DNA from: an uncultured Gammaproteobacteria bacterium
GTDB lineage: Bacteria > Patescibacteriota > Patescibacteriia > Buchananbacterales > UBA6539
Length of the DNA: 64,000 nucleotides
Reading direction: 5' to 3'
Assembly: GCA_964535715.1 (NCBI GenBank)
Contig: CAZHUO010000002.1
Location: 16,916 to 80,915, forward strand
The position numbers were made by a program, and so were the translations under genes. Below are positions 219-16,222 of this stretch, one piece after another. The notes beneath the pieces are model-generated. The model worked only from the letters and a program-made list of their open reading frames with translations. It was not told the origin of the DNA and made no database searches. Position 1 is the stretch's first letter. Every line of letters starts with the position of its first letter.

Positions 219-249
219 TTGACGTCTTGACATAAAAAACCCTATAATA
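219..249 (+). promoter_or_regulatory. sigma70-like promoter candidate upstream of the peptide/rSAM cassette
   Basis: Overlapping TTGACG (219-224) and TTGACA (227-232), then TATAAT at 244-249. Spacers of 19 and 11 nt are non-ideal. An adjacent CGTCA..TGACG inverted repeat is present. Confidence 0.35.
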
Positions 250-436
250 TAAGATAAAGCGTTAAATTGGTGGCAAAGACGATTATTTTAGTGGTTAATT
301 TTTGTTGATTTTACCCCTTAAACCTATTATTTTGAGGGAAGTCTAAAAGTATAAACCAACAGAAACTAGCCACTTGCTAGATTGTCCTTTGTCATAAGCG
401 AACAGAATGTGAATGGTCGAAAGGAGGTGACAGGTC

Positions 437-520
437 ATGTTGAAAGAGTTCACGCTCGAGAAGCGGTCAAAGGTATCCAGCCGCACGTTGAAGGACGCGG
501 TGGACATGGACCAGGACTAG
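437..520 (+). CDS. 27-aa Cys-free small peptide MLKEFTLEKRSKVSSRTLKDAVDMDQD; candidate RiPP precursor for the downstream rSAM-SPASM enzyme
   Basis: ATG at 437 lies 7 nt after GAAAGGAGGTGA, the strongest SD in the window. TAG is at 518-520. Its position and GC content match the cassette. It is below the ORF-track length cutoff. Confidence 0.5.
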   Translation: MLKEFTLEKRSKVSSRTLKDAVDMDQD

Positions 521-532
521 GCCGAGAAGCGT

Positions 533-576
533 GGGGAGGATGGTGGCTTTGCTAAAGGCAAGGTGCCATCCTCCCC
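533..576 (+). promoter_or_regulatory. perfect 11-bp stem-loop between the peptide ORF and the rSAM gene, with no T-run; attenuator or mRNA-stabiliser candidate
   Basis: GGGGAGGATGG (533-543) and CCATCCTCCCC (566-576) are exact reverse complements around a 22-nt loop. Confidence 0.55.
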
Positions 577-605
577 CAACATTCATTCAGGAAAGGAAAA
601 AAGTG

Positions 606-2018
606 ATGTATCCAATACTGGTTGATTGCCGAGTAAGGGGGGCTGAAGGTGACTATTACCTTCATCGTTACCGTACGGGTGATGAGTTTGTTCTTGACTC
701 GTTACAAGCACAAATTCTGCAAGCCTGCACAGGAGAGCATGATGTTGAATGGTTGTCCGGAGAGTTCAATCAGCCAGCCGCAGATATCATGATTTTCCTT
801 GACACGCTCCAAGAGGCTGGTCTGGTGATGAAAAGCGAGGGGGCAACAAAGATTGAGTTCGCAGCGCTCACCAAGCCGCCTTACCTCCGCGAAGTTCATA
901 TTGACGCCACAGGCTGGTGCAATCTCTTTGGAAAGTGTAAGCATTGTTACGGCCGACGAACATTCGAAGAAGCTACTAATGACCAGCTAACAACGGAAGA
1001 GATGATACAGCTCATCGAACAGCTTGGCCAGATGAATGTGGCAAACTGCGTAATGTCCGGTGGGGAAGTGTTCATGAGAAAAGATTTACCCCAACTGATC
1101 TCTTGTCTGGCCCAGCAGCACATCCATCTCACCGGTATCTTCACGAATGGAACGATTTATCGCGATGACGTTGTCGATGCGCTTCAAAAGGAAAAGATGA
1201 GGACTCGTTTTCTTGTCAGCCTTGATGGCCACACTCCCGAGATTCATGACTTTATGCGGGGTCACGGTAACTTTCAAAAGACGGTCGATTTCATCGGTCG
1301 GATTCACGCCGCAGGATTTCCGGTAACAATCAATACCGTGGTCATCAAGCAGAACGTTGCGCACCTAATGGCGATGGCTCGTTTCCTGGAAATCCTTGGA
1401 ACGGTTTACCTCTGGCGCATATCGGTACCTCGCGAACAGGGAGAGACGATTGTCAACAAGGAGCTTATTCTGCCAGACTGGAATGACGTTTTTGCAGCCT
1501 ATGAGCAATTGATCAGGTATGCAATCGCTTCCACTGGCGGGATGCAGTACCAGATCAGCTCAATCTTCAAGTCAGCGTTGCTTGAAGAGCCAATCTACTA
1601 CCTGTTCCGCCCGGAAAGTAGTTGCTGCGAATACAAGCGCAACTCCATTACGGTTAAGCCGAATGGCAAGGTTACTCCTTGTACCGCCTTTGACAATTTC
1701 GTCTTGGGTGATGTCAGGCAAAGCTCGTTGGCCGACATCTGGTACAGTGATCTGACGCAGTCATTCAAGGTTCTTCCAGTTCAAGCAACGGCCTGCAGAG
1801 GCTGCGAACTGTTGCCGTATTGTGGAGGTGGTTGTCGCAAAGTGGCATGGGAGATGCACGGCAGCGCTTTGGCTCTGGACGACAGCGCTTGCCCACTTTA
1901 CCGGTTTGCCCGGGATGTTGTCGGGCCCCTTCTGGAGGAACAGGGCGTAACGGCAGAACTGCTTGAGCGCCCCAGTACCTATCGGTTCGATCCACGCATC
2001 ATCGATCACGCGATATGA
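606..2018 (+). CDS. radical SAM/SPASM-domain peptide-modifying enzyme with an N-terminal PqqD-like RiPP recognition element
   Basis: The rSAM cluster is CNLFGKCKHC (Cx5Cx2C), with a GGE-like motif in VMSGGEVF. The C-terminal SPASM Cys pattern is CCEYK...C(T)AFDN...CRGCELLPYCGGGCR...CP. The N-terminal ~85 aa has a PqqD-like pattern. Start is moved from the ORF-track 531 to ATG 606, which has an AGGAAAGGAAAA RBS-like stretch and avoids the hairpin. Confidence 0.85.
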   Translation: MYPILVDCRVRGAEGDYYLHRYRTGDEFVLDSLQAQILQACTGEHDVEWLSGEFNQPAADIMIFLDTLQEAGLVMKSEGATKIEFAALTKPPYLREVHIDATGWCNLFGKCKHCYGRRTFEEATNDQLTTEEMIQLIEQLGQMNVANCVMSGGEVFMRKDLPQLISCLAQQHIHLTGIFTNGTIYRDDVVDALQKEKMRTRFLVSLDGHTPEIHDFMRGHGNFQKTVDFIGRIHAAGFPVTINTVVIKQNVAHLMAMARFLEILGTVYLWRISVPREQGETIVNKELILPDWNDVFAAYEQLIRYAIASTGGMQYQISSIFKSALLEEPIYYLFRPESSCCEYKRNSITVKPNGKVTPCTAFDNFVLGDVRQSSLADIWYSDLTQSFKVLPVQATACRGCELLPYCGGGCRKVAWEMHGSALALDDSACPLYRFARDVVGPLLEEQGVTAELLERPSTYRFDPRIIDHAI

Positions 2019-2033
2019 GCTAATTAAGTTATG

Positions 2034-2075
2034 GAGGGGAGGAGTGAAAACCACGTCTTCCCTCCAATATTTTTA
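2034..2075 (+). terminator. intrinsic terminator after the rSAM gene
   Basis: GGAGGGG..CCCTCC imperfect extended stem (2034-2066) is followed by AATATTTTTAT. Confidence 0.55.
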
Positions 2076-2884
2076 TGAAAATGAAAAAAAATAAAACTAG
2101 GAAAGAGTGGTGGCAAAAAATTTTTGATCAGGATTATATTAAAACTTACATTGATATCACACCACAAGAGCTTACGGACAAGCAAGTCTCTTTTTTAATA
2201 AATAAATTAAAGCCGATTTCCAAAAAGAAAATTTTAGATTTGGGATGTGGTTATGGCCGTCATACTCTAAAGCTTGCTAAGCTCGGTTGTTCGATTATTG
2301 GTCTTGATTATTCCAAATTATTTTTGAATATTGCCAAAAGACAAGCCGCAAAAGAAGGCATTAAAGCAAATTTTGTTACAGGCGATATGAGGAAGCTTGG
2401 ATTTAAAAATAAGTTTGACGCGGTTATTTGTATGTTTACATCCTTTGGCTATTTTAATGAATACACAGATCATGAGGATACAATTAGGGGTGTTGCCAAA
2501 GCCCTTAAGTCAAAGGGAATATTTTTATTAGATTTGAATAACCCAGCTCGTCGGTTAGCAGGGATAATCAAGAATGGTAAGCTGGACAAAAAAAGGAAAA
2601 TTTTAATCACTAAAAAGATTTTTAAATTATCGAACGGTTTGAAAGTTACGATAACGCAAGAATTTGATTTGATTAAAATGCGTTGGAAATTAATTAGGCA
2701 GTGGAAGGAAGGTAAGAGGAATAAAAAGTATTCTTCAGATATTTATTTATTTACCTTGCCGGAAATTAAACACTTACTGGAACACAATGGATTTAAAGTT
2801 GAGAAAACATGGGGCGATTTTGACGGTTCACTGTTTAATCTTGAGAGTCGAAGGTTGATTATTTTAGCAAGAAAAAAATTGTAA
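2075..2884 (+). CDS. class I SAM-dependent methyltransferase
   Basis: ILDLGCGYGRHT motif I, plus motif II/III spacing. Confidence 0.8.
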   Translation: MKMKKNKTRKEWWQKIFDQDYIKTYIDITPQELTDKQVSFLINKLKPISKKKILDLGCGYGRHTLKLAKLGCSIIGLDYSKLFLNIAKRQAAKEGIKANFVTGDMRKLGFKNKFDAVICMFTSFGYFNEYTDHEDTIRGVAKALKSKGIFLLDLNNPARRLAGIIKNGKLDKKRKILITKKIFKLSNGLKVTITQEFDLIKMRWKLIRQWKEGKRNKKYSSDIYLFTLPEIKHLLEHNGFKVEKTWGDFDGSLFNLESRRLIILARKKL

Positions 2885-2895
2885 TATTTTGCATT

Positions 2896-3312
2896 ATGAA
2901 AATTCGTTGGGCTAAAACCAATAAAGATTTTACCTATATTGCTTCTTTATTTAACCCAAAAAATAACCGATATGTTTGGCCGAAAACTCAAACCGCTAAG
3001 CAAGTTAAACAAAACTGCAGTGAAACCAGACGTTATTATATTTTATTAGTTAAGAATAAACCAGTTGGCTGGTTTAACACTCGTTTGTCCGACAGTAAAG
3101 AAGCAACCATTGGAATAATTATTGACTATCCCTACCAAGGTCAAGGTTTTGGCAAACAAGCTATGGCTTTAATTAAAAAGGAAGCAAAAAAATTAGGAAT
3201 GAGAAGATTGCGGCTGGAAGTTTTTTTGGATAATAAATCAGCTATCAATCTTTATAAGAAAACCGGCTTTCGAACAGCAGCTAAAGTGGTGGTAATGGAA
3301 AAGAAAATTTAG
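2896..3312 (+). CDS. GNAT family N-acetyltransferase
   Basis: QGQGFGKQAM....LYKKTGF acetyl-CoA binding motifs. Confidence 0.8.
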   Translation: MKIRWAKTNKDFTYIASLFNPKNNRYVWPKTQTAKQVKQNCSETRRYYILLVKNKPVGWFNTRLSDSKEATIGIIIDYPYQGQGFGKQAMALIKKEAKKLGMRRLRLEVFLDNKSAINLYKKTGFRTAAKVVVMEKKI

Positions 3313-3346: not shown

Positions 3347-3760
3347 ATGCGAGTACGAGCGATTATAATTAAGGACAATAAAATAATCCTGATTAAAAGA
3401 GTAAGACCTAATGAAACATATTGGGTTTTTCCCGGTGGCGGTGTTGATTCTGGCGAAACAAAAGAAAATGCCCTAGCTAGAGAAATTAAGGAAGAATTGG
3501 GTTTGGATATTGAAGTAAAAGAATTATTTCTAAAAAGGCAATCAGATAAACCGGGAATGGAAGGTATAATGGAATACTTTTTTTCGGCAGATATTATCGG
3601 TGGTGAGCTCGGCAGTGGCGATGGTCCGGAATACCAGAGTGGTACTAATTATGAAGGTAATTACAAAATTGATTTAATTGACATTGGTGATTTAGACCAA
3701 ATCAATTTAAAACCAAAAGAAGCTAAGGATTTGGTTCTAAAATTATCTAGTCAAAAATGA
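3347..3760 (+). CDS. NUDIX hydrolase
   Basis: Nudix box GGGVDSGETKENALAREIKEELGL. Confidence 0.8.
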   Translation: MRVRAIIIKDNKIILIKRVRPNETYWVFPGGGVDSGETKENALAREIKEELGLDIEVKELFLKRQSDKPGMEGIMEYFFSADIIGGELGSGDGPEYQSGTNYEGNYKIDLIDIGDLDQINLKPKEAKDLVLKLSSQK

Positions 3761-4386
3761 AAAGAATTATTTTAACATCCCACGGATTCGAAAAAAATAA
3801 GAAATTAAAGCAGCAACTTCTTGGATTACTGCCATCTTTGACTAAAAATTTATCCGTTGTTATTATAACAACCGCTTCAGCCGAATGGAAGGAAAAAAAT
3901 AAACATGCCGTTTCCGCTAAACAAGCGTTGGAAAATATGGGATTTAAAAAGGTAGCTTTTCTGGACGTAGAATTTGAAAGTCCAAATAAGCTAAAGGATT
4001 TTAATTTAATTTATATTTGTGGTGGAAATCCATTTTATCTTTTATATCACCTTAAGAAAAGCGGAGCTGACAAAGTAATTCAGAAGCTAGCAGACAAGGG
4101 AGTTATCTTAGTTGGTGTTAGCGCTGGTGCTGTAGTATTAGGCCCAAGTATCAAAGTCGCTCAATATTTTGATGATGAGAAAAATATTGTTAAGTTAAAA
4201 AATTTTTCTGCCTTGAAACTAACTGACATTATAATTTTACCTCATTATAAAATAGAATACGAAAATAAAGTAAAAGATTTTGAAAAAGAAAATCATTGTC
4301 AGGTTACTCGTCTAAAAGATAGCCAAGGCGTTACGGTAATTGAAGATAAAATTAAGCCCATTGATTTCGGCGGCCGCAAACCGTAA
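3757..4386 (+). CDS. peptidase E-like (S51 family) / class I glutamine amidotransferase-like
   Basis: GVSAGAVV nucleophile elbow, the ICGGNPFYLL region and a ~210-aa size. Confidence 0.7.
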   Translation: MKRIILTSHGFEKNKKLKQQLLGLLPSLTKNLSVVIITTASAEWKEKNKHAVSAKQALENMGFKKVAFLDVEFESPNKLKDFNLIYICGGNPFYLLYHLKKSGADKVIQKLADKGVILVGVSAGAVVLGPSIKVAQYFDDEKNIVKLKNFSALKLTDIIILPHYKIEYENKVKDFEKENHCQVTRLKDSQGVTVIEDKIKPIDFGGRKP

Positions 4387-4419
4387 TTTGCGGTACAAGT
4401 AGCCTACTTTCAGTATCAG

Positions 4420-4738
4420 AATAATGGAATTGGATCAAATACTAATTACTCAGACTTAAAAACAGGACACACCAGTGTCCGATTTTTGGGACAGCACAAT
4501 ATCCCTGTCCCGTGTCCGATTTGTCCAATTTTGTAGAATTAGGCCTGACCGAGATGCCTCAAACTCGCCTCTAGTAAATACTCTAAATAACCCTTATAAT
4601 GCTTGTAAAGTTTCGGTTCTAGACCGAGGTACACTGCCAGAAAATCGCCGAAGAGGCGTTTTTTTGCCTGTCCGCCTCTCTGGCTCGCCATTCGGTGGCT
4701 TGCGGGGTATAATGTAACTAATAATTAATTCCATTATT
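4420..4738 (+). other. GC-richer structured noncoding element flanked by 12-bp inverted repeats; candidate ncRNA or miniature inverted-repeat element
   Basis: AATAATGGAATT (4420-4431) pairs with AATTCCATTATT (4727-4738). Internal perfect hairpins are GGACAC-acca-GTGTCC (4465-4480) and GGGACAG..CTGTCCC (4488-4511). GTGTCCGATTT is a direct repeat. Confidence 0.3.
4646..4665 (+). terminator. intrinsic terminator inside the structured element
   Basis: CGCC-gaaga-GGCG followed by TTTTTTT. Confidence 0.5.
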
Positions 4739-4754
4739 TTTAACCAATATCATT

Positions 4755-5090
4755 ATGCAATTTCTAATCAATTGGCTAATCTATACTTTAGCCATTATCA
4801 TTACCGCCTATTTGCTGCCGGGCGCAACGATTGAAAGCCTTTTTGCCGCATTTGTTTTGGCTTTGGTTTTGGGGTTGATTAACGCGGTTTTAAAGCCGAT
4901 AATAATTATTTTGACTTTGCCGATTAATATTTTAACCCTGGGACTTTTGACATTGGTGATTAACGCCTTACTGGTGATGCTGGCCGATTTTATTGTGCCG
5001 GGTTTTTCCGTTGGCAGTTTTTGGTGGGCGCTTTTATTCAGCATCATTTTGTCAATTATCAATCTGGTGTTAAGCCGGATTAAAGAGTAA
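4755..5090 (+). CDS. phage holin family IV / DUF360 (YvlD-like) small membrane protein
   Basis: 111 aa with four hydrophobic segments and a typical DUF360 sequence style. Confidence 0.65.
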   Translation: MQFLINWLIYTLAIIITAYLLPGATIESLFAAFVLALVLGLINAVLKPIIIILTLPINILTLGLLTLVINALLVMLADFIVPGFSVGSFWWALLFSIILSIINLVLSRIKE

Positions 5091-5822: not shown

Positions 5823-6845
5823 ATGGATTTAGATAGAATAAATGAAATACTAAAATCATATCAGTTTTTTCGGCGCAAGCAGGTTGATGAAGCGATTTTT
5901 AATCGCTTGGCTTCTAATTGGTCTGAAGTTTCCAACTTGCCCAAAGATCTGATTGAAATTCTTCAAAATGAATGCCCTTTGGAAATCAAAGCGAAAACCT
6001 TTGAAACCAAAGACAAAAAAACCGTAAAAGCTGCAATTATATTGTCAGACAATAAGGAAATCGAAACTGTTTTAATGCGTCATAAAGACAATCGCAATAC
6101 GGTCTGCGTATCTTGCCAGGTCGGCTGCGCTTTAAACTGCGCTTTTTGCGCAACCGGCCAGCAGGGCTTTTGCCGAGATCTGACATCTTCGGAAATTATT
6201 TTGCAGGTTTTATATTTTGCCCGCTTTTTAAAAAAAGAAAACGCCAAAATTACCAATGTTGTTTTTATGGGCATGGGCGAGCCGTTTTTGAATTATGATA
6301 ATGTAATGAAGGCGATTTATTGGCTGAATGACAAAGATAAATTTAATTTAGGAAGCCGCCAAATTTCCATTTCAACTTCAGGAATTATTGAAGGCATAAA
6401 TAAGCTTGCCAAAGAGCCATTGCAGGTAAATTTGGCTTTTTCATTTCATGCTGTTGATAACGATTTACGAACCAAGCTTATGCCGATTAACCAAACTAAT
6501 TCCTTGAGTAAAGTATTGGAGGCAATCGGCAATTATATTGAGAAAACAAATCGGCGGGTAATGATTGAATATCTAATGCTTGAAAATATTAATGATTCAG
6601 AAAATTCGGCTCTTGACTTGGCCAAGCTTTTAAAGAAAAAACTGCATCGACTTTTTTTTGTCAATTTGATCAGTTACAATGCGACTGAAAAATTTCAGCC
6701 TTCAAACCCGGAAACAATAAAAAAATTCAAAAGCATTTTGGAAAAAGAGGGAATTGTTGTGGTTCAAAGATATCGCTTCGGAACAGATATTAAAGCCGCC
6801 TGCGGCCAGCTGGCTTTAAATAGAGTAAAATTAAAAGACAAATAA
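5823..6845 (+). CDS. rlmN: 23S rRNA/tRNA adenine-C2 methyltransferase RlmN (radical SAM; RlmN/Cfr family)
   Basis: CALNCAFCATG radical SAM motif, upstream Cys in CVSCQVGC, and MGMGEPFLNYDNV. Confidence 0.9.
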   Translation: MDLDRINEILKSYQFFRRKQVDEAIFNRLASNWSEVSNLPKDLIEILQNECPLEIKAKTFETKDKKTVKAAIILSDNKEIETVLMRHKDNRNTVCVSCQVGCALNCAFCATGQQGFCRDLTSSEIILQVLYFARFLKKENAKITNVVFMGMGEPFLNYDNVMKAIYWLNDKDKFNLGSRQISISTSGIIEGINKLAKEPLQVNLAFSFHAVDNDLRTKLMPINQTNSLSKVLEAIGNYIEKTNRRVMIEYLMLENINDSENSALDLAKLLKKKLHRLFFVNLISYNATEKFQPSNPETIKKFKSILEKEGIVVVQRYRFGTDIKAACGQLALNRVKLKDK

Positions 6846-6846
6846 T

Positions 6847-7674
6847 GTGAAAAAACTTTTTTATTTATTTTTATTAATATTTTTTTTCTTTTCATTTTAT
6901 TTAGGCTTAAAATTTTTTTACATTCAGAAAGAAAATAAAAGCCAAATCAATAGAGAAAAATTAGAAGAAACCGAAATCAAAGAGCAAAAAATAATTCCAG
7001 AACACGCCAAGGTGCCGATTCTAGTTTATCATCATATCAGGGATTTTTTGCCAAAAGACAGCGCAAATAGCCGGACTTTTATTGTTCCCGCTTCTGATTT
7101 TGCCAATCAGCTTAAATATTTGAAAGATAATGGCTTTGAAGCAATTTCCTTTAAAAATTTACTTGATTATTTTACCGGTGATTTTTCTATGCCAAACAAG
7201 CCGATAATCATTTCATTTGACGACGGGTTGATTAATCAATACCAAAATGCATTTCCGCTGCTCAAAGAATACGGTTTTTCCGCAACATTTTTTATTTTTA
7301 CAAACCCCATAGGAAAAAGCGAAAATTATATGAGCTGGGAAAATGTCAAAGAATTGAATGATGCGGGAATGGAATTTGGCATTCACGGCCATTACCATCT
7401 TTATTTTGACAAAATCAGCCCTGATGAGCTTGATAAAGAAATTGTTTTCAGCAAACAAGTACTAGAGGAAAAGATTAATAGCATGATCGATGTTATTGCC
7501 TATCCTTTTGGCAGTTATAACGATGAAGCATTGAATAAAATAAAAAAAGCTGGCTTTTTTGCTGCGAGAGGGATTACTAATGGCGTAATACATTATAAAG
7601 ATGATTTTTATGATTTAAATAGTTATTTTATAACGGATGATTTTTCGCGTTTTAAAAATATTGTTGAACAATAA
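6847..7674 (+). CDS. polysaccharide deacetylase family (NodB/CE4) membrane-anchored protein
   Basis: N-terminal TM, IISFDDG, HGHYH. GTG start. Confidence 0.7.
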   Translation: MKKLFYLFLLIFFFFSFYLGLKFFYIQKENKSQINREKLEETEIKEQKIIPEHAKVPILVYHHIRDFLPKDSANSRTFIVPASDFANQLKYLKDNGFEAISFKNLLDYFTGDFSMPNKPIIISFDDGLINQYQNAFPLLKEYGFSATFFIFTNPIGKSENYMSWENVKELNDAGMEFGIHGHYHLYFDKISPDELDKEIVFSKQVLEEKINSMIDVIAYPFGSYNDEALNKIKKAGFFAARGITNGVIHYKDDFYDLNSYFITDDFSRFKNIVEQ

Positions 7675-7832
7675 AATCCGCCTTAAATTGTAATAATATA
7701 TCGGCAAATTACGCCCTTGTCTAATATTTTATACTTAATGATTAAATCAGTCTTAAAAAACAAATGATTTTCTTGGCAAAAATATTGAAATACGCTATAA
7801 TAAATATATAATTAATAATTTTCTTAAAAAAA

Positions 7833-8114
7833 ATGGCTAAAATGACCAAATCTCAAACGCTTGCAGCATTGTCTGAAAGCACTGAGTTAAGCAAAAAAGA
7901 CGTAGCTAATCTACTTGATAAGCTAGTCGAGTTAGCTTATTCAGAAGTCAAGAAAAGCGGCGAATTTGCCATCCCTGGTGTTGGTAAATTAGTAAAAATG
8001 AACAGAAAAGCCAGAATGGGAAGAAATCCTGCCACCGGCGAAGAAATCAAAATCCCGGCAAAAACTGTTGTTAAATTCAGAGTTGCCAAAGCCGCAAAAG
8101 AAGCTGTTTTATAA
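7833..8114 (+). CDS. hup: HU family DNA-binding protein
   Basis: KSGEFAIPGVGKL....FRVAKAAKEA signature, 93 aa. Confidence 0.9.
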   Translation: MAKMTKSQTLAALSESTELSKKDVANLLDKLVELAYSEVKKSGEFAIPGVGKLVKMNRKARMGRNPATGEEIKIPAKTVVKFRVAKAAKEAVL

Positions 8115-8133
8115 AAGCTTTATAAAAATAAAG

Positions 8134-8160
8134 GAGCCTGAAATTTTAGGCTCTTTTATT
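8134..8160 (+). terminator. intrinsic terminator
   Basis: GAGCCT-gaaatttt-AGGCTC followed by TTTTATT. Confidence 0.6.
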
Positions 8161-8230
8161 ATTCTAAGCAAGTTAGCATTTTTTCATTAACCTTTTTTCA
8201 AAAATAATGTATAATTAAAATAATGATTTT

Positions 8231-9583
8231 ATGACAAAAAAATGCGATAAAAAAACAAAAGCCTGGATAGTTTCTGTTGATATGGGTTATGGCCATCAGC
8301 GGCCCGCTCATGCTTTAAGGCACTTGGCAAATAAAGGCAGAGTCATCACCGCAAATAATTATCCCGGCATTCCTTCTTTTGATCGAAAAATTTGGTATGA
8401 AAGCCGGAGATTTTATGAATTTATGTCGCGTTTTAAGAATGTGCCTATTATCGGGGATAAGGCTTGGAAGATATATGATAACATGCAGGAAATTCCGGAA
8501 TTTTATCCAAAACGCGATTTGTCGAAGCTTAGCCTTCAGATCAGGCAGATTTATTCAATTATTGAGTCTAAAAAATGGGGCAGCCATTTAATAAATAAAT
8601 TGTCAAAAAATCCTTTGCCTTTAGTCTCAACTTTTTTTATCTCGGCATTTATGGCCGAAACTTTTAAATATCCGGGAGAAATATATTGTTTGGCTACCGA
8701 TACCGATATTAATCGGGCCTGGGCGCCAAAACAGCCGGCTTCTTCCAAGATAAAATATTTTGCTCCAAGTTATCGAGTGGTGGAAAGGCTTAAGCTATAC
8801 GGCGTTCCGGCCGAAAAGATTTTTTTAACCGGTTTTCCTTTGCCTTTGGAAAACACCGGCAACCTGAATCTTAATATTTTAAAAAAAGATTTAAAAAACA
8901 GGTTGGCTAATTTGGATCCAAATGGCAATTATTGGAAAACGTACCATGATGTTGCCGAAAAACATGCAGGTATTAAAAAATTGCCGGCTAAATCTGATCA
9001 TATACTGACCTTAATGTTTGCCGTCGGCGGCGCCGGTGCTCAAAGAGAAATCGGAGTGCAAATAATTAAAAGTTTGAAAAATAAGATTATTAAAAAGAAA
9101 ATAAGGGTAATTCTGGTGGCTGGAATTCATAATAGCCTAAATCAATTTTTCCGCAAATCAGTTGTGGATAACGGCTTGAAAAAGGAATTGGAAAATGGAG
9201 TAAAGATTATTTTTTCTGCCGGAAAATATGATTATTTTAAAAAATTTAATAAAGCATTGCGTACAACTGATGTTTTATGGACTAAGCCGTCCGAGCTGAG
9301 TTTTTATTGCGCTTTGGGAATACCGATTATTATTGCACCGCCAATAGGTTCTCAGGAAGAATTCAACCGGCGCTGGCTTAGGACTATTGGATCAGCTTCA
9401 AGTCAATTTGATCCAAAATATTGTAACGAATGGTTTTTTGATTGGGTTAATTCCGGCTGGCTGGCTGAAGCGGCAATGCAGGGTTTTGTTGAAGCGCCGA
9501 AATTCGGGACTTATAATATTGAAAAGATAATTTGCCATGAGTTTGAAAAGGCTAAAAAGCCCAAGATGGTTTTGCAGTATTAA
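8231..9583 (+). CDS. GT-B glycosyltransferase, MGDG synthase/UgtP-like (GT28-like)
   Basis: N-terminal VDMGYGHQRPAHAL (GxGH) and C-terminal IIIAPPIGSQEEFNRRWLRTIGSA, which resembles the UgtP/MGD PGQE..N...L...G.A region. Confidence 0.5.
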   Translation: MTKKCDKKTKAWIVSVDMGYGHQRPAHALRHLANKGRVITANNYPGIPSFDRKIWYESRRFYEFMSRFKNVPIIGDKAWKIYDNMQEIPEFYPKRDLSKLSLQIRQIYSIIESKKWGSHLINKLSKNPLPLVSTFFISAFMAETFKYPGEIYCLATDTDINRAWAPKQPASSKIKYFAPSYRVVERLKLYGVPAEKIFLTGFPLPLENTGNLNLNILKKDLKNRLANLDPNGNYWKTYHDVAEKHAGIKKLPAKSDHILTLMFAVGGAGAQREIGVQIIKSLKNKIIKKKIRVILVAGIHNSLNQFFRKSVVDNGLKKELENGVKIIFSAGKYDYFKKFNKALRTTDVLWTKPSELSFYCALGIPIIIAPPIGSQEEFNRRWLRTIGSASSQFDPKYCNEWFFDWVNSGWLAEAAMQGFVEAPKFGTYNIEKIICHEFEKAKKPKMVLQY

Positions 9584-9585
9584 GT

Positions 9586-9670
9586 CATGGAACAGAGAAC
9601 ATAAAACATGGAACAAAAGCTTAATATTGCATGTTCTGTGGTATGTGTTTTATGTTCCATAAATCATGAA
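9586..9670. promoter_or_regulatory. long imperfect hairpin between the GT and OFOR genes
   Basis: GAACATAAAACA pairs with TGTTTTATGTTC, plus flanking partial complementarity. Confidence 0.3.
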
Positions 9671-9693
9671 TTTGTGTTATATTAAAATTACAT

Positions 9694-11442
9694 ATGAAAA
9701 ACAGCCAAAATACTAAAAATAACATTTTCACCTGGAAAATCGGCGGAATTGCCGGCGGGGGACAGCAAGCAGCTGGCCTGATTTTTACTAAAGCTTGTGT
9801 TCGCGGTGGCCTGTATACTTTTGACAGCTCCGAATATCCCTCGCGAATTCGCGGCGGGTTGGTAACTTACCGAGTCAGCATTTCCGAAAAACCGGTAATG
9901 GCAATTTACCAAAAAACTCAGCTATTAATTGCTTTGAATCGTGAAGCTTTTGACTACTGTCTACTGGATATGACCAAAGATGGTGTAATTTTATATGATA
10001 GCGATAATTTTGAAATAAAACCCAGTGAAGCCAAAGGAATTAAAGTTTATCCAATGCCTTTGGAAAAATTAGCTAAAGAAGCCGGCATTAAGCCGATTGC
10101 CGTAAATATTATCATTACCGGCGCTTGTGCGGCTTTGCTTGATTATGACTTAGGCATTCTGGATGAGGTTATTAAAGATTCATTTGCCGACAAGGGTCAA
10201 GAAGTTGTAGACATGAATATTACGGCTTCTAAGTTTGGTTATGACTATGCGGTCAAAAATTTTGATACCAAAAATTTTCCTTATAAATTAAAGCCTTTAA
10301 AGAAAAATAATGATTCGATGATTGTCACTTCCAACGATACGCTTTCTTTGGGAGCGGTTGCCTGCGGCTGTAAATTTTTAGCAGCTTACCCGATGACTCC
10401 AGCTTCTTCGATTATGCACAATTTGGCCGCCTGGGCGGAAAAACATGGCATGGTAGTCAAACATGCCGAAGACGAGATTTCCGCCATGCATATGGCAATT
10501 GGTGCGGGTTATGCCGGAGTTAGGTCAATGACTTGCACATCCGGGGGTGGTTTTGCTTTGATGTCTGAAGCCTTGGCTTTAGCCGGAATTACTGAAACGC
10601 CTGTTGTAATTGCTGAGGCGCAAAGGCCCGGCCCGGCCACCGGCTTGCCGACTTGGACTGAGCAAGGAGATTTGGATTTTCTGCGCCATGCCGGCCACGG
10701 CGAATTTATTCGGGTAATCTTGGCGCCGGGTGATCCTAAAGAAGCTTTTAATTTAACTGTTTTGGCTTTTAACTTGGCTGAAGTCTGGCAAATTCCGGTT
10801 TTTGTTTTGGTTGATAAATATATTGCCGAGGGTCATCAATCAATTGAAGATTTAAGCATTAATAAGATAAAAATTGATCGTGGAGAGCTTCTAAGTGAAG
10901 AACAGCTGGCAAAAATTAAAGACTTTAAGCGATATGAATATTCTAAATCAGGAGTTTCGCCTCGTTCTATTCCAGGCCAAAAAGGCGGAGTCTATTTGGC
11001 AAACAGCGATGAGCATGAAGAACACGGCTATACAATCGAAGGGTACGATGCAAAAACTCGGAAGCTGATGGTTGAAAAAAGAGCTTCTAAATTATCTGGT
11101 ATATTAAAAGATTTGCCCAAGCCGGAGTTATTTGGATCTAAATCAGCCAAGTTAACTTTAATCGGCTGGGGTTCAGTCAAAGGTCCGGTTTTGGAAGCAT
11201 TGAAAGTTTTAGATCAAGTAAATTATGTTCATATAGCCGCTCCTTGGCCTCTTAATGCTGATGAAGTCAGAAAAGTTCTAAAAGGAACCAAGAAATTGGT
11301 TGCTATTGAAAATAATCATACCGGCCAACTGGCTAATATTTTGGAACAAAACGGAATTAAAATTGATGAAAGATTAAACAAGTTCGATGGCGCCCAGTTT
11401 TTTCCGGAAGAAGTCATTGAGTCAGTTAGTAAGTTAAAATAA
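9694..11442 (+). CDS. 2-oxoacid:ferredoxin oxidoreductase, alpha subunit with fused N-terminal gamma domain
   Basis: The N-terminus has a gamma-domain motif. The remainder is a KorA/PorA-like core. Confidence 0.9.
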   Translation: MKNSQNTKNNIFTWKIGGIAGGGQQAAGLIFTKACVRGGLYTFDSSEYPSRIRGGLVTYRVSISEKPVMAIYQKTQLLIALNREAFDYCLLDMTKDGVILYDSDNFEIKPSEAKGIKVYPMPLEKLAKEAGIKPIAVNIIITGACAALLDYDLGILDEVIKDSFADKGQEVVDMNITASKFGYDYAVKNFDTKNFPYKLKPLKKNNDSMIVTSNDTLSLGAVACGCKFLAAYPMTPASSIMHNLAAWAEKHGMVVKHAEDEISAMHMAIGAGYAGVRSMTCTSGGGFALMSEALALAGITETPVVIAEAQRPGPATGLPTWTEQGDLDFLRHAGHGEFIRVILAPGDPKEAFNLTVLAFNLAEVWQIPVFVLVDKYIAEGHQSIEDLSINKIKIDRGELLSEEQLAKIKDFKRYEYSKSGVSPRSIPGQKGGVYLANSDEHEEHGYTIEGYDAKTRKLMVEKRASKLSGILKDLPKPELFGSKSAKLTLIGWGSVKGPVLEALKVLDQVNYVHIAAPWPLNADEVRKVLKGTKKLVAIENNHTGQLANILEQNGIKIDERLNKFDGAQFFPEEVIESVSKLK

Positions 11443-15790: not shown

Positions 15791-15847
15791 TCGGGCTGGG
15801 GAGATTCGAACTCCCGACCTCATCGTCCCGAACGATGCGCGCTAGCC
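15791..15847 (-). repeat. truncated direct copy of tRNA-Pro (positions ~17-73, no CCA)
   Basis: 57/57 identity to 16149-16205. The stop codon of the GIY-YIG ORF lies inside it. Confidence 0.75.
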
Positions 15848-16123
15848 CCCGCCAGAGGCGGGTCGGCCTTTGGCGGAAGCTGCTCTAATAATTATATTAC
15901 GAACTTGTCTTCCAAATCCACTTTTGTAAAATTTTTCTCTCATAATAGCATCCTGTTCGCATAAGTATTTTTCAAAATATAATAATATTAGATGACCATT
16001 CTCACGTGTCCATTTGTTCGATTTCTGATTATGTTGTTTTAATCTGTCTTCTGGATTAATTTTTGAGTAACCGACGTATATCTTTCCATTTTTTATACTT
16101 TTTAAAAAATATACATAAAACAT
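15842..16123 (-). CDS. small GIY-YIG nuclease family protein (UPF0213/YhbQ-like), 93 aa
   Basis: YVYFLKS...KIYVGYS...R..QH GIY-YIG motif. Paralogous to the 31225 gene. The C-terminus reads into the tRNA remnant. Confidence 0.7.
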   Translation of the reverse strand: MFYVYFLKSIKNGKIYVGYSKINPEDRLKQHNQKSNKWTRENGHLILLYFEKYLCEQDAIMREKFYKSGFGRQVRNIIIRAASAKGRPASGGG

Positions 16124-16145: not shown

Positions 16146-16222
16146 TGGTCGGGCTGGGGAGATTCGAACTCCCGACCTCATCGTCCCGAACGATGCGCGC
16201 TAGCCAGCTGCGCTACAGCCCG
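16146..16222 (-). tRNA. tRNA-Pro (anticodon CGG), 77 nt with encoded CCA
   Basis: Manual cloverleaf fold gives a 7-bp acceptor stem, 4-bp D stem, 5-bp anticodon stem, loop UUCGGGA with G37, 5-bp T stem with T-loop TTCGAAT, discriminator A and 3' CCA. Confidence 0.85.

What the first reader, a model, noticed from the sequence alone, without database searches (positions are those of the whole stretch)
606..2018. rSAM-SPASM enzyme with a non-canonical Cx5Cx2C radical SAM cluster motif and N-terminal PqqD-like RRE
Only three Cys occur in the AdoMet-cluster region (CNLFGKCKHC), spaced 5 and 2 rather than 3 and 2. The SPASM half has the full seven-Cys auxiliary-cluster pattern. The N-terminal ~85 aa look like a winged-helix RRE. 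That combination is typical for RiPP maturases, but the Cys spacing is rare.
Basis: partly seen in the sequence, partly recalled or inferred. Interest (0 to 1): 0.6.

Follow-up and report, generated by a model that had tools for sequence, protein, structure and literature searches.

The report
Peptide-modifying radical SAM enzyme with precursor
This gene encodes an iron-sulfur "radical SAM" enzyme with an unusual but functional-looking cluster motif. It almost certainly modifies a tiny, unannotated 27-residue peptide encoded just upstream, and relatives of this gene pair sit next to valyl-tRNA synthetase and acetyltransferase genes surprisingly often.

Summary
ORF 606..2018 encodes a 470-aa radical SAM/SPASM protein whose only cluster motif is C105-x5-C111-x2-C114; there is no canonical Cx3Cx2C. 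The seven SPASM cysteines are invariant. The N-terminal ~80 residues give no Pfam PqqD hit, but a profile-profile comparison (95% probability) and a high-confidence AlphaFold model (three or four strands, then three helices) show a PqqD-like RRE.

The Cx5 spacing is a real two-residue loop insertion (CNLW-C to CNL[FY]Gx-C). It is fixed in one clade of an uncharacterised, mostly CPR/Patescibacteria family and arose again in a distant paralogue clade. CXnCX2C variants are already documented, so the motif alone is modest news.

It has a strong Shine-Dalgarno site, a hairpin before the enzyme gene and an invariant Val-Asp dyad.

The peptide-enzyme cassette is a GC island (GC3 0.56 and 0.89, against 0.32 for the window).

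In about half of the related lineages the cassette lies beside an aminoacyl-tRNA synthetase gene, nearly always ValRS (three ValRS types), and often beside a GNAT. This resembles the genomic signature reported for tiarin aaRS inhibitors.

The chemistry is unknown. It is a new RiPP family of a known kind.

The parts
219..255 (+). sigma-70-like promoter(s) for the cassette (TTGACG-18-TATAAT; overlapping TTGACA-17-TAAGAT), just after the terminator of the upstream phosphatase gene (167-182)
   Evidence: Consensus scan, 11 of 12 and 10 of 12 matches. This is a pattern match only.
355..436 (+). 5' untranslated leader, where the GC-rich island begins. Contains the palindrome CTAGCCACTTGCTAG (366-380) and the Shine-Dalgarno site AAGGAGGTG (421-429)
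   Evidence: The segment is conserved with the closest relative L012 only, not family-wide. Composition rises from 0.33 to 0.53 here.
437..520 (+). unannotated precursor peptide gene, 27 aa: MLKEFTLEKRSKVSSRTLKDAVDMDQD. N-terminal leader (L2, K3, F5, L7, R10) and core around invariant T17, K19, V22, D23
   Evidence: A homologous small ORF lies at the same position in every related locus with enough upstream sequence. Invariant residues are written with all synonymous codons: R10 with 6 codons, V22 with 4. There is no NCBIfam match.
533..576 (+). intercistronic stem-loop between the precursor and enzyme genes (20 pairs), without a U-tract
   Evidence: RNAfold on 518-606 gives -35.7 kcal/mol. 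Hairpins of unrelated sequence occupy the same place in L012, L013, L024, L057, L058 and L059.
606..2018 (+). RRE - radical SAM - SPASM maturase, 470 aa
   Evidence: Pfam; NCBIfam, all hits below equivalog cut-offs; AF2 pLDDT 93.6; Foldseek top hits SkfB, SuiB, PqqE, TigE, CteB.
606..890 (+). N-terminal PqqD-like RRE domain (about residues 1-95; strands 2-5, 8-11, 18-21, 26-29; helices 32-39, 47-53, 58-70; strand 74-77)
   Evidence: hhalign 95.4% probability against PqqD-positive N-termini; AF2 secondary structure; no PF05402 hit.
918..947 (+). radical SAM cluster loop C105-NLFGK-C111-KH-C114 (Cx5Cx2C). F108-G109 correspond to the two-residue insertion
1623..1892 (+). SPASM auxiliary-cluster cysteines: C340, C341, C359, C397, C400, C406, C410, C429
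   Evidence: Seven are invariant in A1 and A2; C340 is present in most aligned relatives but not all.
2032..2066 (+). intrinsic terminator-like hairpin followed by AAUAUUUUUAU; end of the GC-rich island
   Evidence: RNAfold on 2016-2080 gives -24.1 kcal/mol in total (two hairpins); composition.
2075..2884 (+). class I SAM methyltransferase, probable tailoring enzyme. Conserved downstream of the enzyme gene in this sub-clade (L012, L013, L061)
   Evidence: Pfam Methyltransf_25/11. Nearest curated and solved relatives include the RiPP N-methyltransferases for daptides and CypM. Synteny.
2896..3312 (+). GNAT N-acetyltransferase. Orthologues lie directly downstream of the enzyme gene in L014, L018, L028, L029, L033 and L036
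   Evidence: Pfam Acetyltransf_1 1.9e-16; tblastn 36-44% identity in 6 further lineages; nearest PDB hits are YycN, N-terminal acetyltransferases and RimI.

Best explanation
Window 437..2066 is a self-contained two-gene RiPP cassette with its own promoter, precursor gene, intercistronic hairpin, maturase gene and terminator.

**Proposed mechanism (inferred, not shown).**
- The maturase's N-terminal PqqD-like RRE binds the N-terminal leader of the 27-aa peptide (hydrophobic and basic pattern L-K-x-F-x-L-x-x-R).
- The [4Fe-4S] cluster held by C105, C111 and C114 cleaves SAM to the 5'-deoxyadenosyl radical.
- The radical abstracts a hydrogen from the C-terminal core at or next to the invariant Val22-Asp23 dyad.
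- The two SPASM auxiliary clusters take up the electron.
- The outcome would be an intramolecular cross-link or another oxidative change, or an epimerisation, at that dyad.

**What is shown.** The domain architecture, the invariant cysteines, the conserved translated precursor and the conserved synteny.

**The Cx5Cx2C spacing.** It is a lineage-specific two-residue lengthening of the cluster loop (W replaced by F/Y-G-x). It leaves the three ligands and the SGGE SAM motif intact. It is most likely a tolerated or fine-tuning change rather than a new cofactor arrangement.

**Tailoring and immunity.** The downstream methyltransferase and GNAT are probable tailoring or self-protection enzymes.

**Origin.** The cassette is compositionally foreign to its host. 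It has probably been moved or replaced horizontally as a unit.
For: - **Domains and cysteines:**
- **RRE:**
- **Structural neighbours:** the closest solved structures are peptide maturases (SkfB, SuiB, PqqE, TigE, CteB).
- **Precursor:** a small ORF with a strong Shine-Dalgarno site is present in more than 20 lineages. It persists down to 29-37% enzyme identity (L038, L057-L060). The core block [KR]-R-T-x(2-3)-[AS]-[SA]-V-D is shared and the substitution pattern is synonymous-rich.
- **Hairpin:** one is conserved in position but not in sequence.
- **Insertion:** it is fixed in one derived clade and has a second independent origin.
- **Literature precedent:** extended CXnCX2C loops still bind the cluster, for example QueE CX14CX2C and HmdB CX5CX2C. 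RadicalSAM.org lists CX4 to CX11 (PMC4389238, PMC9477430).
- **GC island:** rSAM GC3 0.56 and peptide GC3 0.89, against a median of 0.32 for 46 long ORFs. The rSAM ORF has the highest GC3 of those 46.
- **Tailoring genes:**
Against: - No Pfam PqqD hit.
- No curated family reaches its cut-off; the best is ScmE at 137 bits against 400. No chemistry can therefore be transferred by homology.
- The window peptide has no Cys, Trp or Tyr, so the well-known thioether and aromatic cross-links are excluded and the reaction is unknown.
- No protease or exporter is conserved in the locus.
- Peptide-enzyme docking could not be run.
- Cluster loading on a Cx5 loop is inferred from precedent, not shown here.
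- The methyltransferase diverges in step with the enzyme among the window, L012 and L013 (73% and 60% against 77% and 69%) yet has host-like GC. The history of the GC island is therefore not simple.
Confidence: 0.8

Rival explanations
1. Biological role A. The product is a processed, Trojan-horse-type or direct inhibitor of valyl-tRNA synthetase. The residue before the conserved Asp/Asn (Val here) sets target specificity. The GNAT protects the producer by acetylating the processed warhead. This would be the logic reported for tiarins and microcin C, but built by a radical SAM enzyme.
For: - **aaRS neighbours.** An aaRS gene lies within one or two genes of the cassette in 14 of about 26 lineages examined.
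- **ValRS.** It is the neighbour in 12 lineages: L015/24-26, L020, L023, L027, L030, L031/54/55, L034, L036, L017/52, L061 and the paralogue L060. Three different ValRS families occur (PRK05729-type of 713 aa, alt_ValS NF000540, PRK13208-type), in five different arrangements.
- **Other aaRS neighbours.** The paralogue in L024/L026 follows MetRS, and its peptide has Met-Asn where the others have Val-Asp. One paralogue sits beside ThrRS.
- **GNATs.** They flank the enzyme gene in 7 or more lineages.
- **Control.** The more distant SPASM loci fetched by the same scan (L039-L051) show no ValRS or MetRS neighbour.
- **Precedent.** bioRxiv 10.64898/2025.12.02.691738.
Against: - The window itself has no ValRS in 64 kb.
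- Whether the neighbouring aaRS genes are second, resistant copies could not be tested. In small CPR genomes they may be the only copy.
- The specificity match rests on one Met case. One Val-Asp peptide sits next to ThrRS (L057), and L054 has both MetRS and ValRS.
- No exporter or importer bait is evident.
- No chemistry is known by which a radical SAM enzyme would make an aminoacyl-adenylate mimic.
Confidence: 0.3
2. Biological role B. The modified peptide is a signalling molecule (pheromone) sensed by the neighbouring 7-TM histidine kinase and receiver-only response regulator.
For: A HisKA_7TM (+GAF) kinase lies 0.4-6 kb upstream in five lineages. These are the window contig (L001, about 1.5-3.7 kb upstream of the enzyme gene and outside the 64-kb window), L012, L013, L014/L056 and L054/55. 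They span enzymes only about 50% identical.
Against: - The response regulators have no DNA-binding output domain (146, 128 and 130 aa).
- No exporter is present.
- Many loci lack the kinase.
- The kinase has host-like GC while the cassette does not.
- Association with ValRS and GNAT is more frequent.
Confidence: 0.15
3. The Cx5Cx2C motif marks a degenerate or non-SAM-cleaving ("pseudo-rSAM") enzyme, or a protein that modifies something other than the small peptide, such as a cofactor (AhbD/NirJ-like) or a large protein (anSME-like). On this reading the small ORF would be fortuitous.
For: - NCBIfam lists heme-pathway and pseudo-SAM families among the weak hits: AhbD 106 bits, NirJ2 101 bits, pseudo_SAM_Halo 71 bits.
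- The AF2 cluster loop has lower confidence, with mean pLDDT 74 for residues 111-120.
Against: - All three cluster cysteines, the SGGE motif and seven SPASM cysteines are invariant over sequences down to about 25% identity.
- The insertion is maintained, with a conserved aromatic-Gly, through a whole clade under evident purifying selection.
- An RRE is present.
- The small ORF is conserved at the amino-acid level with synonymous turnover.
- All these hits are far below their cut-offs.
Confidence: 0.05

Closest known systems
SuiB/StrB (streptide Lys-Trp cyclase) and other RRE-rSAM-SPASM RiPP maturases with solved structures (SkfB, CteB, TigE)
   Same: Same three-domain layout: N-terminal RRE, rSAM barrel, SPASM with two auxiliary clusters. 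Foldseek E 1e-14 to 1e-17, with SuiB aligned over 470 columns. A small precursor gene lies immediately upstream.
   Different: - Only 14-18% identity.
- Cx5Cx2C instead of Cx3Cx2C.
- The precursor has no Trp or Cys, so the reaction cannot be the same.
- No NCBIfam equivalog is reached.
PqqE and MftC (peptide-derived cofactor maturases) and ScmE (SynChlorMet cassette)
   Same: These are the best sequence-level relatives: PqqE is the best PDB sequence hit at 8.8e-15, and ScmE scores 137 bits, PqqE 105 bits and MftC 94 bits in NCBIfam. They act on short peptides at a specific residue pair, such as Glu-Tyr or Val-Tyr.
   Different: - Scores are far below the curated cut-offs.
- The RRE is fused rather than a separate PqqD or MftB.
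- The precursor motif ...RT-x-K-x-x-V-D... is unrelated.
- No PqqB/C or MftD/E-type partners are present.
Radical SAM enzymes with expanded cluster loops (HmdB/HcgA CX5CX2C; QueE CX14CX2C; RadicalSAM.org megaclusters with CX4 to CX11)
   Same: The first spacer of the cluster motif is lengthened and the CX2C end is kept (PMC4389238, PMC9477430).
   Different: These are unrelated subfamilies without SPASM or RRE. Here the expansion arose inside a SPASM RiPP-maturase family whose sister lineages keep Cx3. I did not see an expanded first spacer described for a SPASM RiPP maturase in the papers read.
Tiarins (trifolitoxin family) and microcin C: RiPP aminoacyl-tRNA synthetase inhibitors
   Same: The genomic signature is the same: a small precursor with a strong Shine-Dalgarno site, an RRE-bearing core enzyme, frequent neighbouring aaRS genes and GNATs, and a variable residue before a conserved polar residue (searches compared).
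   Different: - The core enzymes are entirely different: FMN dehydrogenases TfxB and TfxC, or the ThiF-like MccB, against a radical SAM/SPASM enzyme.
- Duplication of the aaRS and inhibition are unproven here.
- The window locus itself has the GNAT but no aaRS.

Membership tests
Radical SAM superfamily (PF04055) | Significant match to the Radical_SAM HMM | tested here: met
   88.1 bits against a cut-off of 29.5, residues 102-261.
Radical SAM superfamily (PF04055) | Canonical CX3CX2C cluster motif | tested here: not met
   The only motif is C105-x5-C111-x2-C114; there is no Cx3Cx2C anywhere. The three Cys are invariant and align with the canonical motif of relatives with a two-residue gap. CXnCX2C variants are accepted members (PMC9477430).
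Radical SAM superfamily (PF04055) | GGE-type SAM-binding motif after strand 2 | tested here: met
   G152-G153-E154 are invariant and S151 nearly invariant (at least 90%) in alignments A1 and A2.
Radical SAM superfamily (PF04055) | Reductive cleavage of SAM by a [4Fe-4S] cluster | not testable with these tools
   Needs biochemistry.
SPASM domain (PF13186 / TIGR04085) | HMM match and the seven-Cys pattern CX9-15GX4C ... CX2CX5CX3C ... C | tested here: met
   PF13186 at 46.6 bits against a cut-off of 21.5. C341-x12-G354-x4-C359, C397-x2-C400-x5-C406-x3-C410 and C429 are all invariant.
PqqD-like RiPP recognition element (PF05402) | Match to the Pfam PqqD HMM | tested here: not met
   No hit at E <= 1. 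None of the close homologues carries a precomputed PF05402 hit.
PqqD-like RiPP recognition element (PF05402) | Homology to bona fide PqqD domains by profile comparison | tested here: met
   hhalign of the family N-termini against the N-termini of PF05402-positive relatives: 95.4% probability, E 1.9e-8, 62 columns.
PqqD-like RiPP recognition element (PF05402) | Winged-helix fold: three-stranded sheet followed by three helices | tested here: met
   The AF2 model has strands 2-5, 8-11, 18-21 and 26-29, then helices 32-39, 47-53 and 58-70, with pLDDT 95-97. The model aligns over its full length with SuiB. No domain-only fold search was done.
PqqD-like RiPP recognition element (PF05402) | Binds the leader of the precursor peptide | not testable with these tools
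Named RiPP maturase equivalogs (ScmE, StsB, WgkB, PqqE, MftC, DynA, AlbA, ...) | Score at or above the NCBIfam curated cut-off | tested here: not met
   Best scores: ScmE 136.8 against 400, StsB 123 against 625, WgkB 117.6 against 650, PqqE 105 against 381, MftC 94.5 against 265.
RiPP biosynthetic cassette | Conserved precursor peptide gene adjacent to the maturase | tested here: met
   The ORF at 437..520 has homologues in more than 20 lineages and shows amino-acid-level selection.
Tiarin-like / Trojan-horse aaRS-inhibitor RiPPs | TfxB and TfxC-type FMN dehydrogenase core enzymes | tested here: not met
   None is present in the window locus; the core enzyme is a radical SAM/SPASM protein.
Tiarin-like / Trojan-horse aaRS-inhibitor RiPPs | An aaRS gene in the cluster whose specificity matches a core residue, and which is a second copy in the genome | tested here: inconclusive
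   At family level, ValRS lies beside Val-Asp peptides in 12 lineages and MetRS beside one Met-Asn peptide. There is one ThrRS exception. No aaRS is present in this window. aaRS copy number was not testable.
Tiarin-like / Trojan-horse aaRS-inhibitor RiPPs | Associated GNAT immunity acetyltransferase | tested here: inconclusive
   A GNAT is present at 2896..3312 and is orthologous to the GNATs next to the enzyme gene in 6 other lineages. Its substrate is unknown.

The most novel reading that the evidence does not exclude
This cassette belongs to a previously unrecognised, radical-SAM-built family of aminoacyl-tRNA synthetase-directed RiPPs found mainly in CPR/Patescibacteria. The X-(Asp/Asn) dyad of the core (Val-Asp here) would be converted into a warhead whose X residue selects the target synthetase, ValRS in this case. 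The neighbouring GNAT, and elsewhere a co-located ValRS or MetRS, would give self-protection. This would be a second, mechanistically unrelated solution to the strategy recently described for tiarins.
Probability: 0.25. Interest if true: 0.85.

Novelty: new variant of a known kind. Interest (0 to 1): 0.62.

Why it matters
RRE-rSAM-SPASM maturases are a well-known kind of enzyme. This family, however, has no curated model, no characterised member and a precursor without Cys or aromatic residues in the core. Its chemistry at the invariant Val-Asp dyad is therefore likely to be new or at least unassigned.

It is one of the few RiPP systems that appear widespread in CPR/Patescibacteria, organisms with tiny genomes and little known secondary metabolism.

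The repeated juxtaposition with ValRS (three unrelated ValRS types) and with GNATs gives a concrete, testable hypothesis about function. If that hypothesis is right, it would add a new scaffold for aaRS inhibition.

The natural Cx3/Cx5 pair within one family is also a clean system for asking what an expanded cluster loop does to a radical SAM active site.

Tried and rejected
1. **Canonical motif or frameshift artefact.** Rejected: there is no Cx3Cx2C anywhere, and the insertion is shared by 27 homologues.
2. **Pfam PqqD.** No hit. I replaced it with hhalign.
3. **Peptide search against NCBIfam.** Nothing found.
6. **T-box or other known RNA upstream of the peptide-rSAM-valS operons, or in the window.** None found.
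7. **A family-wide conserved 5'-UTR element.** Conservation is seen only between the window and its closest relative.
8. **Strict link between the Cx5 loop and the VD[MA]D core type.** Rejected as a functional correlation. Cx3 paralogues also have VDMD or VDRD (L057, L058, L060), so the pattern is phylogenetic.
9. **Fixed Thr-to-Val spacing as a sign of a Thr-Val/Asp macrocycle.** Weakened: paralogues have a spacing one residue shorter.
10. **Viral contig scans.** The other found no relatives.
11. **Radical adenosylation of the peptide as a route to an adenylate mimic.** Considered and set aside on mechanistic grounds. It would need an olefin acceptor, and SPASM enzymes are oxidative cross-linkers. 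This rests on my own knowledge, not on a test.
Full report
**1. The observation**

ORF 606..2018 (+) translates to a 470-aa protein starting MYPILV, the N-terminus shared by all homologues. Pfam gives Radical_SAM (9.5e-25, residues 102-261) and SPASM (4.1e-12, residues 341-401). The protein has 15 cysteines. A pattern scan finds no Cx3Cx2C and exactly one CxnCx2C, namely C105-NLFGK-C111-KH-C114.

HMMER aligns this stretch to SkfB's CNL--SCSFC with a two-residue gap. In a 39-sequence alignment C105, C111, C114, G152-G153-E154 and the seven SPASM cysteines (C341, C359, C397, C400, C406, C410, C429) are invariant.

**2. How unusual the spacing is**

A cluster motif was found in 253 of the 265 retrieved relatives. 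Of these, 221 have Cx3 and 27 have Cx5. All the Cx5 cases lie in this family or its paralogues. The ancestral form in the family is CNLWCKHC. The derived form is CNL[FY]G-x-CKHC, in which the Trp is replaced by Phe or Tyr plus Gly plus one more residue.

A neighbour-joining tree places nearly all Cx5 sequences in one derived clade nested among Cx3 lineages. A second, independent Cx5 group (CNQANQCRHC, CNLARHCPHC, CNLYQYCQHC) occurs in a distant paralogue clade. So the loop tolerates this expansion and has acquired it at least twice.

The literature already records CX4 to CX11 variants in RadicalSAM.org clusters. It also records HmdB with CX5CX2C and QueE with CX14CX2C, which has a canonical cluster on an extended loop (PMC9477430, PMC4389238). 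The spacing is uncommon among the SPASM relatives sampled here, but it is not a new principle.

**3. The N-terminal domain**

PF05402 (PqqD) is not detected even at E <= 1. Three other lines of evidence support a divergent PqqD-like RRE:

- A profile of the family's N-termini matches a profile of the N-termini of PF05402-positive relatives with 95.4% probability (E 1.9e-8, 62 columns).
- The AlphaFold2 model built on 37 homologues is confident (mean pLDDT 93.6, pTM 0.92). It shows strands 2-5, 8-11, 18-21 and 26-29 followed by helices 32-39, 47-53 and 58-70.
- Foldseek's best PDB matches are RiPP maturases (SkfB, SuiB, PqqE, TigE, CteB), and SuiB aligns over 470 columns.

**4. The missed substrate**

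At 437..520, seven to eight bases after AAGGAGGTG, lies a 27-codon ORF: MLKEFTLEKRSKVSSRTLKDAVDMDQD. The same small ORF precedes the enzyme gene in every related locus with enough upstream sequence. Examples are:

- MLKGFQLKKRQKASSRTLKDAVDMDAD
- MLKVFRLVPRKCMRAHTLKASVDSFGPDD
- MLKDFKLTRRKHAYARTMKASVDADSYE

It is also found in front of paralogues only 29-37% identical...KRTYSAVDMDWD......KRTYASVDRDDEY...KRTHASVDMDQPD...KRTFSSVDRDADL. In the main family R10, T17, K19, V22 and D23 are invariant. These residues are encoded by six, three, two, four and two different codons respectively, so selection acts on the peptide and not on the DNA.

A strong stem-loop (533-576; the 518-606 segment folds at -35.7 kcal/mol) separates the peptide and enzyme genes. 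Hairpins of unrelated sequence occupy the same place in other loci. A promoter-like site (219-255) and a terminator-like hairpin (2032-2066) bracket the pair. The peptides match no NCBIfam model. The enzyme reaches no NCBIfam equivalog cut-off; the best is ScmE at 137 bits against 400.

This is an uncharacterised RiPP family. It is named in public records only as "radical SAM protein" or "hypothetical protein". Most named members come from CPR/Patescibacteria MAGs: Komeilibacteria, Portnoybacteria, Parcubacteria, Falkowbacteria, Paceibacterota and Saccharibacteria. The organism of the window itself was not identified.

**5. Likely mechanism**

By analogy with solved RRE-rSAM-SPASM enzymes, I propose the following sequence:

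- The RRE binds the N-terminal leader.
- The Cx5Cx2C cluster cleaves SAM.
- The 5'-deoxyadenosyl radical abstracts a hydrogen in the C-terminal core.
- The auxiliary clusters handle the electron.

The site is most likely the invariant Val-Asp dyad. The only variants seen at these aligned positions are Met-Asn and Ile-Asn. The window peptide has no Cys, Trp or Tyr, so thioether and aromatic cross-links are excluded. A cross-link, another side-chain modification or an epimerisation at the dyad remain possible. This step is inference; nothing here shows the chemistry.

In the Cx3 clade most peptides have a Cys five residues before the conserved Thr. Peptides of the Cx5 clade have Lys, Asn or His there. 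The apparent link between Cx5 and a VD[MA]D core is phylogenetic, because Cx3 paralogues also have VDMD or VDRD.

**6. Context in the window**

Downstream lie a class I methyltransferase (2075..2884) and a GNAT (2896..3312). The methyltransferase's nearest curated or solved relatives include the RiPP N-methyltransferases of daptides and cypemycin. NUDIX and peptidase S51 genes follow. The methyltransferase is conserved after the enzyme gene in the window's sub-clade (L012, L013, L061). The GNAT is orthologous to GNATs directly after the enzyme gene in six other lineages.

Upstream on the source contig, outside the window, are a HisKA_7TM-GAF histidine kinase, a receiver-only response regulator and a low-molecular-weight phosphatase. 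Such kinases recur near the cassette in five lineages.

**7. Composition**

The stretch from about 355 to 2066 has about 50% GC in a 33% GC window. GC3 is 0.56 for the enzyme gene and 0.89 for the peptide gene, against a median of 0.32 for 46 long ORFs; the rSAM ORF has the highest GC3 of those 46. The closest relative (L012, 77% identity) shows the same contrast.

The cassette looks horizontally acquired or replaced as a unit. However, the flanking methyltransferase diverges in parallel with the enzyme, so the history is unresolved.

**8. An unexpected family-level pattern**

In about half of the lineages with usable flanks the cassette lies beside an aminoacyl-tRNA synthetase gene, and this is nearly always ValRS. 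It is seen in L015/24-26, L020, L023, L027, L030, L031/54/55, L034, L036, L017/52, L061 and the paralogue L060.

The ValRSs belong to three different families: a PRK05729-type of 713 aa, alt_ValS NF000540 and a PRK13208-type. They occur in five arrangements: overlapping downstream, after the GNAT, convergent after the methyltransferase, divergent upstream and co-directional upstream.

In L024/L026 a second, paralogous cassette follows MetRS. Its peptide (…NMKAAMNDSSSE) has Met-Asn where the others have Val-Asp. One paralogue lies beside ThrRS (although its peptide has Val-Asp), one beside an AsnB-like amidotransferase and one beside a glycosyltransferase. The more distant SPASM loci fetched in the same scan (L039-L051) have no ValRS or MetRS neighbour. 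No T-box or other known RNA explains the linkage.

Three features recur here: aaRS genes near the core operon, frequent GNATs, and a variable residue before a conserved polar residue. This combination was recently used to predict, and for trifolitoxin to prove, that tiarins are Trojan-horse aaRS inhibitors. In that system a GNAT acetylates the processed warhead (bioRxiv 10.64898/2025.12.02.691738).

I rate the same role here as possible, at about 0.25-0.3, for these reasons:

- The window has a GNAT but no ValRS in 64 kb.
- aaRS copy number could not be checked.
- The specificity match rests on one Met case with one ThrRS exception.
- Conserved synteny with housekeeping translation genes remains an alternative.

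**9. Verdict**

The Cys spacing is a clade-specific loop insertion of modest novelty. The greater interest lies in three things: the unannotated precursor with an invariant Val-Asp core, the uncharacterised mostly-CPR family, and the aaRS/GNAT neighbourhood.

I class it as a new variant of a known kind, a new RiPP family made by an RRE-rSAM-SPASM enzyme, and score interest at about 0.6.

Noticed in passing
window 340-2066: A sharp compositional island: about 50% GC against 33% in the flanks. GC3 is 0.56 for the enzyme gene and 0.89 for the peptide gene, against a window median of 0.32. It covers exactly the 5' leader, peptide gene, hairpin, enzyme gene and terminator. The same contrast is seen in the closest relative, L012.
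   Followed up: partly
window 4390-4754: An intergenic stretch with raised GC (0.40-0.48), no Pfam-bearing ORF and no Rfam hit. It folds better than shuffled controls (z -2.3 on the + strand, -3.0 on the - strand). A long closing stem is formed by terminal inverted repeats (AATAATGGAATT... / ...AATTCCATTATT). It may be a MITE-like insertion or an unknown structured RNA.
   Followed up: partly
L024 4423-7770 (- strand); same in L026: A Portnoybacteria contig carries two paralogous peptide-rSAM cassettes facing each other, each beside an aaRS. One is peptide(Val-Asp)-rSAM-ValRS. The other is MetRS-peptide(Met-Asn; MKKSLTKARLIMLKRNINMKAAMNDSSSE)-rSAM.
   Followed up: partly
L061 1-4546 (- strand) and 7424-9841: Divergent from the cassette is an operon encoding a nitroreductase-like protein, a ThiF-like adenylyltransferase (Rv1355c family), a PaaK-like ligase and an amino-acid dehydrogenase (ScyB-like). 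A PRK13208-type ValRS lies convergent downstream. This may be a second RiPP-like cluster sharing the ValRS.
   Followed up: no
L015, L020, L031/L054 (for example L015 1797-3938): The cassette-linked bacterial-type ValRS is only 713 aa. It matches the PRK05729 profile to position 696 of 860, so the C-terminal part of the profile is missing, while the HIGH and KMSKS motifs are intact. I could not tell whether this is normal for CPR or special to these copies.
   Followed up: no
window 5823-6845: A second radical SAM protein in the window, with a Pfam Radical_SAM hit and a canonical CALNCAFC (Cx3Cx2C) motif. By recollection it looks RlmN/Cfr-like, but this was not tested. It is a useful internal contrast to the Cx5 enzyme.
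   Followed up: no
window 3347-4386; L054 824-4564: A NUDIX hydrolase and a peptidase (S51 in the window, S66 in L054) recur near the cassette and the 7-TM kinase in two distant lineages. S66 is the family of the microcin C immunity peptidase MccF (from my own knowledge). The significance is unknown.
   Followed up: no
window 15791-15861 and 16146-16222 (- strand): tRNA-Pro(CGG) at 16146-16222. A weak second tRNA-like Rfam match (30.6 bits) at 15791-15861 was not called by ARAGORN.
   Followed up: no
window 4755-5090: A 111-aa membrane protein of the Phage_holin_4_2 family (7e-33), standing alone after the structured intergenic region.
   Followed up: no
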